Numbered from the stretch's first letter, positions 45,948 through 58,124 are shown. The stretch is 64,000 nt of DNA from Eledone cirrhosa (GCA_964016885.1 OZ024766.1:8928001-8992000); one strand, 5' to 3'. Notes: generated from the sequence alone by a model not told the origin. Program-made: numbers and translations.

Positions 45948-48889
45948 TTATTCCTTTTTTTTAAATGTTATTTCCAGGGTCACATTTGAGAAACAGGACT
46001 CTATTTGGGGTTTCAAGACTATGAAATAATTGTAGGGTTTTGGTTTTATGATAGAAACCCGCTGGTCAGTTCCAGGTTTGTTTGACCTCCATTTCGTGAG
46101 ATGTTCCTTACAGTTGACCCTCTTGTAACAAACATAAAGATCCACACCACCTTCCCCAGAGTATGTCACGACATCCACTTTCTTCCACAGAGTCTTCTTT
46201 ATATGAAGTTTAAAGACAATCTCCTCACCCTCAACTGATTTCAGTTTCTCCACAGTCGAGTTTTTGTGGATGCCGCGTATATATGTAGAGATATCGCAAG
46301 TATTAATGCCGACCTTCTCGAAAGAATGCTTCACGGGTTTCGTGTTATAGCCAAGGTCGTAAGCGGCTTTTATTACACCACAAGCGCCCTCAACAAAATT
46401 GGTCGTCGGATGCCAATAAAAGCGATTGGCGTGGACGGCAGTATGGAAAATTTTCCTCACATTCCAGCCCTCACTGTTGGACAAAAGACAGAAAAAACGG
46501 TTAAAAACCCCGCTACTGTAATGGACATTAAGGTCACTGTGGTATTTACTGGCGTGAATGATCGAATGCCCATCAGCAGATTGGTTACAAAGCTTGCGCA
46601 ATGGTGTGGGAGAAATGTCCTCACCGATTTTCCAGTCCTTTTCGTAAAATTCAAAGTTTTCGACTGCCTCCCCGGCTAGGTCACTGAAAGCTTCGTTGAT
46701 CGCCCCCATCTCAGCTTTGTACAACAACCCAGAGTTCTCATCCGTGAAACAATGTGAGATTTCGTGAGCAACAATATCTAAGCTGACAAACGACATATAT
46801 TTGTTATTGCCGTCACCAAACACAAATTTGTCCCCGATATAAAAAGCATTCGCTATATTACGACCGTAATGTATGTGAAAGACCAATGGTAACTCTTTCT
46901 TCGGAGATACATTACCCCATTCTATATACATCCTATAGGCAACTCCTCCATAAAACAGTGCATCGTTTATCGGTGAATAAGAGTTGTTGATTTCATCGCG
47001 TGAGCCATTTTTGCAGTTCGCATGATAAGTTTTCTGTTTGTCAATGGGTAAATATCTTTGACCTTTTACATTAATCACCTTGACAATGTCATTTAAAAAG
47101 TAGCAATCTTCACCACTTTTTTCCACATTTAAATATGGCCTGTCCACTCCGTATATATGTTTCCCTATCAGGGCATTTCCTCCGCTTCCTTCAATTTTGT
47201 CCATCTCGTTCTTGTTTTCGTTAAGTTTCGTTTCGTTCTTGTCTTGTTTATCATCTACCTCATTAAGTTTCGTTTCGTTCTTGTCTTGTTTATCATCTAC
47301 CTCATTAAGTTTCGTTTCGTTCTTGTCTTGTTTATCATCTACCTCGTTAAGTTTTGTTTCGTTCTTGTCTTGTTTATCATCTACCTCGTTAAGTTTCGTT
47401 TCGTTCTTGTCTTGTTTATCATCTACCTCGTTAAGTTTCGTTTCGTTCTTGTCTTGTTTATCATCTACCTCATTAAGTTTCGTTTCGTTCTTGTCTTGTT
47501 TATCATCTACCTCATTAAGTTTCGTTTCGTTCTTGTCTTGTTTATCATCTACCTCGTTAAGTTTCGTTTCGTTCTTGTCTTGTTTATCATCTACCTCGTT
47601 AAGTTTTGTTTCAACTACATCTAGGTTATTATCTACCACATTACGTTTCATTTCATCCACATCTAGGTTATTATCTAGCACATTCAATTTCACTTTGTAC
47701 ATGTCTGAGTCTACGTTATTTTGTAGTGCCTTCAGTTTCATTTCATATGCATCTAAGTTATTATCTACCTCGTTACGTTTCATTTTGTCCATGTCTTCGT
47801 TATTACCTAGCTCGTTACGTTTCATTTCGTCCACATCTACGTTATTACCTAGCTCGTTACGTTTCATTTTGTCCATGTCTTCATTATTACCTAGCTCGTT
47901 ACGTTTCATTTCGTCCACGTCTTCGTTATTACCTAGCTCGTTACGTTTCATTTTGTCCATGTCTTCGTTATTACCTACCTCGTTACGTTGCATTTTGTCC
48001 ACGTCTTCGTTATTACCTAGCTCATTACGTTTCATTTCGTCCACGTCTTCGTTATTACCTAGCTCGTTACGTTTCATTTCGTCCACGTCTTCGTTATTAC
48101 CTAGCTCATTACGTTTCATTTTGTCCGCGTCTTCGTTATTACCTAGCTTGTTACGTTTCATTTCGTCCACGTCTTCGTTATTACCTAGCTCGTTACGTTT
48201 TATTTCGTCCACGTCTAGGTTATTTTCTAGCGCATTCCGTTTCATTCTGCGCAACCTTCGGTCAGTTCCTAACTTATTCAATTTTATTTTGTAAGCGTCC
48301 CGGTTAGTTTCTAGAGCGTCCCATTTCTCGAGAAGTTCTCCAGTCATAGCATCGATCATCATACAGAACCGATAACTTTCCTCATCAGCCACAGCGAAAT
48401 ATCTCACTCGATATACCAAGAACCCTTTATGGCCCTTCACGTAGATCTCCAGCAGGGGTTTCTCACTCTCTATATGGACCCCTTCTGTCGTGAAATTACC
48501 GTACATCACCGCTAACTTCACAGCTTCGTCTTCAGTGACGTTTGGTTTCGTAGATTCGATGTCTTTGTCAAGATTCTGGACAAGTTTCCCGGTCACTTGA
48601 CCAGTATAGAGGTCAGTCACTGCATCAGTCTCGACAGTGAGGGTAGCATCAAACACTGGCAACCCTCTATAAGTCTCCATGTACTTTTTGATGTCGGTTC
48701 CTTGGACGCTCTGAGCAGAATCGGTCAATTTTACGTCCTCGTGTTCCTTCATGCCAAACAGGTCCCTTGTGGTGATTAAACGATGTGGTTCCCGCTTCAT
48801 CTTCTCACTCAGGGATTCCATGTTGGACAAGAACACGTCCCTAGCCTGTCGCCATTTCACCGACAACACCACATCGCTCTCCAGCAACG
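45948..48889 (-). CDS. M4-family (vibriolysin/pseudolysin/thermolysin-like) secreted zinc metalloprotease, exon 2: FTP, PepSY, 14-aa repeat insert, M4 catalytic domain, PPC-like C-terminal domain
   Basis: HEISH zinc motif (46766-46752), GAINEAFSD third ligand, NAFY, FGDG, VHYSSGVFN, SPINDA, mature-start-like GSGGN. Propeptide motifs YRGLPVF and IDAMTGELLEKWD. PPC-like SGEGGVDLYV...FSNVTL. Polypyrimidine tract and acceptor TCTAG at 48894-48890; stop TAA at 45950-45948. Confidence 0.93.
47200..48260 (-). repeat. Coding 42-bp (14-aa) tandem repeat inside the M4 gene
   Basis: About 15 units of the MKRNELGNNEDVDE type followed by 9 units of ETKLNEVDDKQDKN, all in frame. Confidence 0.95.
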
Positions 48890-49119
48890 CTAGACACAAG
48901 AAAAAGAAAAAAAACAAAATAACAATAATAATTTCTACTGCCAGCAATATTTTTTTTTGGGGGGAGGGGGGGGGGGGGTCGATTAAATCAACCTCCCAGT
49001 GTATTACTGGTACTTTATTTTATCGACCCCGTAAGGATGAAAGGTAAAGTTAACCTCAGCGGGATTTTAACTCAGAACGCAAAGGGCCGTAACTCTATGC
49101 CGCGAAGCATGGTCTCCGA

Positions 49120-58062: not shown

Positions 58063-58078
58063 AAAAAGATCAACTCAC

Positions 58079-58124
58079 CAATTGTTATGAGAAACAGGAA
58101 GCGAATGTCAACACCAAAGGTCAT
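58079..58124 (-). CDS. Predicted exon 1 of the M4 protease (N-terminal part of the signal peptide)
   Basis: ACAAC-ATG at 58124 gives MTFGVDIRFLFLITI plus one base G, followed by the consensus donor GTGAGT (58078-58073). Phase 1 matches the acceptor at 48890 (G|CG = Ala), giving MTFGVDIRFLFLITIALLESDVVLSVKW... Confidence 0.78.

What the first reader, a model, noticed from the sequence alone, without database searches (positions are those of the whole stretch)
45948..58124. Bacterial-type M4 (vibriolysin/pseudolysin-like) metalloprotease as an intron-containing animal gene: candidate horizontal transfer
Seen: an intact reading frame with the order signal peptide, FTP, PepSY, M4 catalytic domain, PPC. 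It has HEISH, GAINEAFSD, VHYSSG, the conserved Arg (PLR) and two Cys pairs in positions like those of gammaproteobacterial M4 enzymes. It lies among animal SINEs, LINEs and satellites, with no bacterial neighbours. Known: M4 peptidases with FTP/PepSY/PPC are typical secreted bacterial proteases (Vibrio vibriolysin/HapA, Pseudomonas LasB). Inference: the gene came from a marine gammaproteobacterium and was domesticated, possibly for a secretory role (salivary or venom, digestive, hatching, mucus). Related M4 genes may exist in other invertebrates, so the transfer could be old and partly known.
Basis: partly seen in the sequence, partly recalled or inferred. Interest (0 to 1): 0.85.

Follow-up and report, generated by a model that had tools for sequence, protein, structure and literature searches.

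The report
Octopus bacterial-origin protease with repeat insert
This is a real, spliced gene, likely of an octopus, for a zinc protease that molluscs likely took from bacteria long ago (already published for octopus); this copy also carries a 360-amino-acid repeat between its inhibitory front end and the enzyme, which is likely cut away when the enzyme is switched on.

Summary
There is a two-exon, 995-codon M4 (vibriolysin-type) protease gene on the minus strand, with zinc ligands and catalytic residues intact. It is a host gene: a GT-AG phase-1 intron shared with paralogs, a spliced contig in run X1, purifying selection, and 8 copies in the genome. The headline is not new. Three close relatives (O. 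bimaculoides XP_014767445.1, XP_014774680.1, XP_014783435.1) are ZnMP1/2/7, published in 2018 as bacteria-to-octopus transfers (PMC6011040). Relatives occur in cuttlefish, bivalves, gastropods and a chiton, and nest inside proteobacterial-type M4, so the transfer is ancient and no donor genus is resolved. Long junction inserts recur in mollusc-side M4 (7 of 54, against 1 of 317 others). It is most likely a secreted protease whose spacer is removed on activation; processing and tissue role are untested. A new variant of a known kind, of modest interest.

The parts
58079..58124 (-). Exon 1 coding part: ATG plus 15 codons and 1 base; hydrophobic, likely most of a signal peptide
   Evidence: exon-1 letters are joined to exon 2 in an X1 contig
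48890..58078 (-). Phase-1 GT..AG intron, 9,189 nt, filled with a 72-bp satellite, a 191-bp tandem repeat and a 100-bp array
   Evidence: same donor and phase in paralogs L002, L004, L005, L006
45948..48889 (-). Exon 2: rest of the coding sequence to the stop codon
48624..48737 (-). FTP propeptide motif
   Evidence: Pfam PF07504 E 2.5e-4, at cut-off
48321..48536 (-). PepSY propeptide domain; its end aligns with the last residues of the solved MCP-02 propeptide
   Evidence: PF03413 E 0.0015, under cut-off; 3nqy_A E 1e-9
48276..48317 (-). Junction unit: homologous to the propeptide/enzyme junction of relatives and first unit of the array; keeps a Tyr where relatives have one
47640..48275 (-). Array block A: acidic 14-residue units, 12 Lys-Arg pairs, first one an R-x-K-R furin-type site (48248-48237)
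   Evidence: the furin consensus is recalled
47196..47639 (-). Array block B: 9 identical 14-residue units, each with an N-E-T sequon, no Lys-Arg
   Evidence: the unit is present as a multi-copy loop contig in runs X1 and X2
46296..47195 (-). M4 catalytic domain: HExxH (46766-46752), third zinc ligand in GAINEAFSD (46706-46680), Arg of PLR, His of VHYSSG, conserved cysteines
   Evidence: invariant in 77 of 77 aligned proteins
45966..46268 (-). PPC-like C-terminal domain
   Evidence: custom profile E 4e-9; alignment; no Pfam hit

Best explanation
A spliced host gene encodes a vibriolysin-type M4 zinc protease precursor of a family that molluscs likely gained once from a proteobacterium, and in this copy the propeptide/enzyme junction has grown into a 364-residue acidic repeat that is likely cut away during secretion to free an active enzyme. 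Shown: gene structure, intact catalytic residues, a spliced contig, the paralog family, the tree position, and the array's make-up and origin from the junction. Inferred: the precursor enters the secretory route by its signal peptide; the FTP/PepSY propeptide folds and inhibits the enzyme as in vibriolysins; the enzyme cuts itself at the first, Tyr-bearing junction unit and/or host convertases cut at R-x-K-R and the Lys-Arg pairs of block A; the glycosylated block B stays on the enzyme until trimmed, acting as a charged spacer (pI 4.5, net charge -39, beside a basic enzyme part of pI 8.5). The mature enzyme with its PPC domain would digest extracellular protein, most simply as a digestive-type protease.
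For: Catalytic set invariant across 77 of 77 aligned proteins. Spliced join with window-specific exon-1 letters and 0 differences over 48749-48890 in X1, while DNA-like runs X2-X4 read on into the intron. An X1 contig covers 45900-47247 with 0 differences, runs 30 bases into block B, and shows no loose end there. dN/dS is 0.11-0.12 in the catalytic domain and 0.21-0.23 in the pro-region against four paralogs. 8 copies lie on 4 large contigs. Rooted IQ-TREE: window with ZnMP1/2 and Argonauta 100/94; molluscs plus 8 unnamed rows 96/94, inside the proteobacterial-type clade 100/99. The array has no stop in the coding frame against 47 and 79 in the other two sense frames, and its one length variant is a whole number of codons. 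The junction unit matches the 24 units of 14 codons at 24.7 of 42 bases on average; 0 of 577 other coding windows and 0 of 2000 shuffles reach that. Vibriolysin propeptide role, self-cleavage and hydrophobic P1' preference: PMC3831164 passages. PPC binds protein substrates: PMC3327674 abstract. Octopus ZnMP cDNAs were amplified from hepatopancreas: PMC6011040.
Against: No processing, activity or tissue data for this copy. The kind of run X1 is not on record; RNA is inferred from the spliced join, and all four runs come from one study that may be the assembly's source. No contig spans the array, so its length is not confirmed outside the assembly. One X1 contig (48304-48659) carries window alleles in its 5' part and then runs on into a paralog-type junction without the array: an assembly mosaic or a real array-free form. 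One of the five sense/antisense alternative frames (an antisense one) is also stop-free, so an open frame alone is weak evidence of selection on the array; the excess of synonymous variants is slight (5 of 10 sites, p 0.015). The residue aligned with the first residue of mature elastase is Asp, a poor P1'. Monophyly of the two mollusc lineages alone is not resolved in the free trees (30-38% of bootstrap trees), only not rejected (p-AU 0.61).
Confidence: 0.75

Rival explanations
1. The array is a near-neutral coding minisatellite: it expanded at a cleaved, tolerant site and persists only because 42-bp steps keep the frame; the Lys-Arg pairs and sequons are by-products.
For: Found in 1 of 8 genome copies and nowhere else by DNA search; block B units are nearly identical, so recent; the window is full of tandem arrays; no named octopod relative has it (junction 11-14 residues).
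Against: Two blocks with different, host-type signals in a sensible order; long junction inserts recur in mollusc-side M4 (7 of 54 vs 1 of 317, p 7e-6, rows not independent), three Haliotis ones with dibasic sites, two of them in an R-x-x-R-type context; block B variants are all synonymous (2 of 2 sites).
Confidence: 0.4
2. The precursor doubles as a prohormone-like polyprotein: convertases release about a dozen acidic 12-residue peptides from block A that have a function of their own (ion binding, buffering of the basic protease in granules, signalling).
For: 12 Lys-Arg pairs at 14-residue spacing after an R-x-K-R site, the layout of secretory peptide precursors (recalled).
Against: No Gly before the Lys-Arg pairs, so no amidation signal; no look-alike in the ESM Atlas (a blank that shows nothing); the unit derives from the protease's own junction.
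Confidence: 0.12
3. The array blocks maturation and the copy is a transcribed but inactive gene.
For: Self-cleavage in M4 is intramolecular (PMC3831164; geometry recalled), and 364 extra residues plus an Asp at the elastase-equivalent start could disturb it.
Against: No stop or frameshift in 995 codons; all catalytic residues kept; dN/dS about 0.11 in the catalytic domain, though that averages over time before the array arose.
Confidence: 0.1
4. Bacterial contamination or chimeric assembly.
For: Best solved-structure hits and most database hits are bacterial.
Against: Spliceosomal intron shared with paralogs and spliced in X1; 22.4-Mb contig; nearest relatives are octopod at 54-57% identity against 45% or less for named bacterial hits; a record labelled as contamination (P0070) falls with Vibrio splendidus whereas this gene falls with molluscs.
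Confidence: 0.01

Closest known systems
Octopus bimaculoides horizontally acquired Zn-metalloproteinases ZnMP1-7 (Liu et al. 2018; PMC6011040; companion Gene paper doi 10.1016/j.gene.2018.05.013, not held)
   Same: Same family and clade: ZnMP1, 2 and 7 are P0003, P0122, P0005; 56-57% identity over the mature part for P0003 and P0005; same domain order; expressed.
   Different: This copy belongs to a five-gene lineage on contig C27 with no ortholog among the named hits; it has a 377-residue junction against 13.
Vibriolysin / pseudolysin (LasB) / MCP-02 group of M4 peptidases
   Same: FTP-PepSY-catalytic-PPC order, zinc ligands, catalytic Arg and His, conserved cysteines.
   Different: Intron-split signal peptide, many N-glycosylation sequons, a long repeat with dibasic sites at the self-cleavage junction; bacterial-side junctions have a median of 9 residues.
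Other mollusc-side M4 with long junction inserts (Haliotis P0233/P0272/P0277; unnamed P0434, P0441, P0365)
   Same: Low-complexity spacer at the same site; P0365 reaches 398 residues; P0272 and P0277 have an R-H-R-R site.
   Different: Thr/Pro- or Thr/Glu/Gly-rich, unrelated in sequence, and in the other mollusc lineage, so independently gained.

Membership tests
Peptidase family M4 (thermolysin) | HExxH zinc motif | tested here: met
   HEISH; H712, E713, H716 invariant in 77 of 77
Peptidase family M4 (thermolysin) | Third zinc ligand Glu about 20 residues on, in GxxNExxSD | tested here: met
   GAINEAFSD; E736 and D740 invariant
Peptidase family M4 (thermolysin) | Active-site Arg and transition-state His (roles recalled) | tested here: met
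   R768 and H793 invariant
Peptidase family M4 (thermolysin) | Pfam Peptidase_M4 and Peptidase_M4_C above cut-off | tested here: met
   70.6 and 101.3 bits
Peptidase family M4 (thermolysin) | FTP/PepSY propeptide | tested here: met
   FTP at cut-off, PepSY under cut-off; 3nqy_A propeptide E 1e-9
Peptidase family M4 (thermolysin) | Self-catalysed propeptide removal; zinc-dependent, phosphoramidon-sensitive activity | not testable with these tools
   needs recombinant protein
Vibriolysin/pseudolysin group | Nests in the proteobacterial-type clade, apart from Bacillus and Streptomyces M4 | tested here: met
   100/99 branch in the rooted tree
Vibriolysin/pseudolysin group | C-terminal PPC domain | tested here: met
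   custom profile E 4e-9; Pfam gave no hit
Vibriolysin/pseudolysin group | Short propeptide/enzyme junction | tested here: not met
   377 residues against a median of 9 on the bacterial side; this is the variant feature, not a family-excluding one
Octopus/mollusc horizontally acquired ZnMP family (PMC6011040) | One clade with ZnMP1/2/7 | tested here: met
   100/94 with ZnMP1 and ZnMP2; ZnMP7 in the same group
Octopus/mollusc horizontally acquired ZnMP family (PMC6011040) | Integrated in the host genome and transcribed | tested here: met
   intron, 22.4-Mb contig, spliced contig in X1; run kind not on record
Octopus/mollusc horizontally acquired ZnMP family (PMC6011040) | Single transfer for all mollusc copies | tested here: inconclusive
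   two lineages each 100/99; their union unresolved, p-AU 0.61
Prohormone-type polyprotein | Repeated units between dibasic sites | tested here: met
   12 Lys-Arg in block A
Prohormone-type polyprotein | Gly-Lys-Arg amidation signal (common, not universal; recalled) | tested here: not met
   units end in Met/Ile-Lys-Arg
Prohormone-type polyprotein | Released peptides detected | not testable with these tools
   needs peptidomics

The most novel reading that the evidence does not exclude
After one ancient transfer, possibly older than molluscs, animals repeatedly rebuilt the self-cleavage junction of the bacterial M4 zymogen into a host-controlled module (convertase sites plus a glycosylated or mucin-like spacer). 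This gene is the extreme case: the junction itself was amplified 26-fold into a protease-plus-peptide polyprotein, turning a self-activating bacterial virulence-type protease into one gated by the animal secretory pathway.
Probability: 0.2. Interest if true: 0.65.

Novelty: new variant of a known kind. Interest (0 to 1): 0.33.

Why it matters
The transfer itself is known, so the gene mainly extends a published family. The added value is a concrete example of how a bacterial gene is fitted to an animal after transfer: an intron in the signal peptide, glycosylation sites, and repeated, independent growth of the activation junction. Near-identical pro-domains with and without the array in one genome give a ready paired test of how a zymogen tolerates or uses a long spacer. 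The tree also suggests the family is phylum-wide or wider, which a full phylogenomic study could date.

Tried and rejected
No RNA holder was listed as such by the run search; this blank is not used as evidence. X1 contigs did not cover 48250-48301; a hole proves nothing and is not used. A structure prediction was queued and had not finished, so there is no model and no fold search. The ESM Atlas gave no usable hit for the array. A search for the exon-1 region in the genome was swamped by a repeat; paralog exons were found in fetched stretches instead. The array as a hidden intron was rejected: purine-rich sense strand without a pyrimidine tract (read) and no loose end at its 3' edge in X1. The array as an inserted genome-wide satellite was rejected: the DNA search found it only here (a search that skips very common words) and it matches the junction. 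Names for the 9 unnamed sister rows were not on record, so presence outside molluscs is not shown. Ten paper searches listed PMC6011040 as the only paper on this transfer and none on junction repeats; subscription journals are mostly missing, and the companion Gene paper was not held. Term look-ups in PMC7656900 and PMC7826175 found no M4 passage. Three look-ups of earlier scan findings returned nothing.

Full report
Observation. The minus strand holds an open frame at 45948-49019. A 46-nt exon at 58124-58079 joins it across a 9,189-nt GT..AG phase-1 intron to give 995 codons. Pfam finds Peptidase_M4 and M4_C above cut-off, FTP at cut-off and PepSY below it. The pro-region matches the solved MCP-02 propeptide (E 1e-9) and the mature part matches Pseudomonas elastase (E 2e-73). 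Pfam misses the C-terminal domain, but a profile from 37 bacterial M4 C-termini finds it (E 4e-9). Both zinc histidines, the catalytic Glu, the third ligand, the Arg, the His and three cysteines are invariant in 77 of 77 aligned proteins.

It is a host gene. The window lies on a 22.4-Mb contig of a 3.0-Gb genome. Eight copies match: this one, four in a cluster 3.7 Mb away on the same contig, and three on other contigs. Of the five paralogs examined for exon 1 (L002-L006), four have an in-frame first exon with the same donor and phase; L003 has the donor but no in-frame exon. In run X1 a contig reads 48749-48890 without a difference and continues into exon-1 letters specific to this copy, while X2-X4 read on into the intron. 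X1 also holds 45900-47247 without a difference. The kind of X1 is not on record; I infer RNA from the join. All four runs are of one study and may be the assembly's source. Against the four clustered paralogs dN/dS is 0.11-0.12 in the catalytic domain, 0.21-0.23 in the pro-region and 0.39-0.40 in the C-terminal domain.

The transfer is known and old. The eight best hits are cephalopod: Octopus bimaculoides, O. vulgaris, O. sinensis, Argonauta, and a cluster holding Sepia pharaonis. Further named members come from Crassostrea, Pinctada, Haliotis, Pomacea and the chiton Liolophura. The accessions behind P0003, P0122 and P0005 are ZnMP1, ZnMP2 and ZnMP7 of PMC6011040, which reports seven octopus Zn-metalloproteinases as bacterial transfers, validated by PCR on hepatopancreas cDNA (whole text read, figures and supplements not seen). 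The companion Gene paper was not held; I saw only its title. A FastTree of 250 catalytic domains puts all 36 named mollusc or own-genome rows, with 7 unnamed rows, on one side of a 96 branch. A rooted IQ-TREE of 65 rows (a hand-picked subset of the 197 rows plus 4 fetched ones, LG+G4 without the mixture model) gives two mollusc lineages (each 100/99), joined with 8 unnamed rows (96/94), inside the proteobacterial-type clade (100/99) and sister to its main group (88/86). One lineage holds cephalopods and an oyster, the other a chiton, gastropods, a bivalve and cephalopods, so the split predates those classes. Monophyly of molluscs alone is unresolved but not rejected (p-AU 0.61). No donor genus can be named. 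The unnamed sister rows include many paralogs on megabase contigs, which looks animal, but no names are on record.

The array. Between the end of the propeptide and the catalytic domain, relatives have 9-15 residues as a rule; this gene has 377, 364 more than its paralogs. It consists of a junction-like first unit, 25 whole units (24 of 14 codons, one of 16) and a part unit. The coding frame has no stop; the other sense frames have 47 and 79. The first unit aligns with the junction of relatives and matches the 24 regular units at 24.7 of 42 bases on average, above all 577 other coding windows and 2000 shuffles, so the array grew from the junction. A DNA search finds it only here. Block A carries 12 Lys-Arg pairs beginning with an R-x-K-R site; block B is nine identical units, each with an N-glycosylation sequon. 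The insert is 42.5 kDa, pI 4.5, net charge -39, beside a mature part of pI 8.5. Block B is present in X1 and X2 as a multi-copy loop contig, with no sign of skipping at its 3' edge; no contig spans the array. One X1 contig has this copy's alleles at 48423-48576 and then a paralog-type junction; the DNA-like runs show similar allele mixing between runs, so I read it as an assembly mosaic, but an array-free form is not excluded.

The site is a recurrent target. Junctions over 60 residues occur in 7 of 54 mollusc-side rows and 1 of 317 other rows; 9 sister rows were counted apart (none over 60, 5 with dibasic sites) and 11 of 391 could not be measured (p 7e-6, rows not independent). The other six are Thr-rich and lie in the other lineage, so there were at least two independent gains. 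P0365 reaches 398 residues.

Mechanism. In vibriolysins the propeptide is a chaperone and inhibitor removed by self-cleavage, and hydrophobic P1' residues are preferred (PMC3831164, passages); PPC domains bind protein substrates (PMC3327674, abstract). The solved propeptide's end aligns with the start of the junction unit, and the mature start of elastase aligns with an Asp just before the catalytic domain. I infer that the first unit, which keeps a Tyr, is the self-cleavage site or that convertases cut block A, and that the spacer is then trimmed to free a secreted protease. A digestive role is the simplest reading given hepatopancreas expression of relatives. All of this is inference. The main rival is that the array is a tolerated minisatellite (0.4).

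Verdict. Member of M4 and of the published octopus/mollusc transferred family on every feature I could test except the short junction. The transfer is already known; the junction array and its recurrence were not found in ten searches of the held library, which lacks most subscription journals. New variant of a known kind; interest 0.33.

Noticed in passing
window 48420-48889 vs G000:C27 5.22-5.28 Mb (L002-L005): The pro-region is far closer to the clustered paralogs than the catalytic domain is (synonymous differences in 16 of 145 codons vs 88 of 221, p 8e-10; dS 0.22 vs 1.7). This suggests gene conversion or a recombinant origin with the break near the array.
   Followed up: partly
L002 vs L004 (G000:C27 5223655 and 5260087): Recent tandem copies differ by 35 residues but only 6 synonymous codons in the catalytic domain, and are almost identical elsewhere; overall dN/dS 1.15. 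Possible positive selection on substrate specificity.
   Followed up: partly
L024:5600-5860 (exon 1 of paralog L003): Donor site present but no in-frame first exon found; a frameshifted copy or an assembly error.
   Followed up: no
P0349, P0362, P0376, P0398, P0421, P0450, P0469-P0488, P0323, P0329: Unnamed M4 proteins that group with the mollusc clade, many as paralogs on the same megabase contigs, several with basic junction sites; possibly non-mollusc animals.
   Followed up: partly
P0365, P0441: Unnamed mollusc-side M4 with an unrelated Thr/Glu/Gly five-residue repeat (398-residue junction in P0365) at the same site.
   Followed up: partly
window 97-530: Tandem 84-bp units that read as a C2H2 zinc-finger array (identity recalled).
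   Followed up: no
window 36416-38644 (-): Three frame-broken pieces of a LINE with endonuclease- and reverse-transcriptase-like motifs (identity recalled).
   Followed up: no
window 28287-34942, 39325-40394, 49128-54415, 58461-58815: One 72-bp satellite family in four arrays, with 204-bp higher-order structure in the first; also an 82-bp array of 103 copies at 2494-10840.
   Followed up: no
P0070: An M4 filed under an isopod and labelled as contamination falls beside Vibrio splendidus, a useful negative control.
   Followed up: yes
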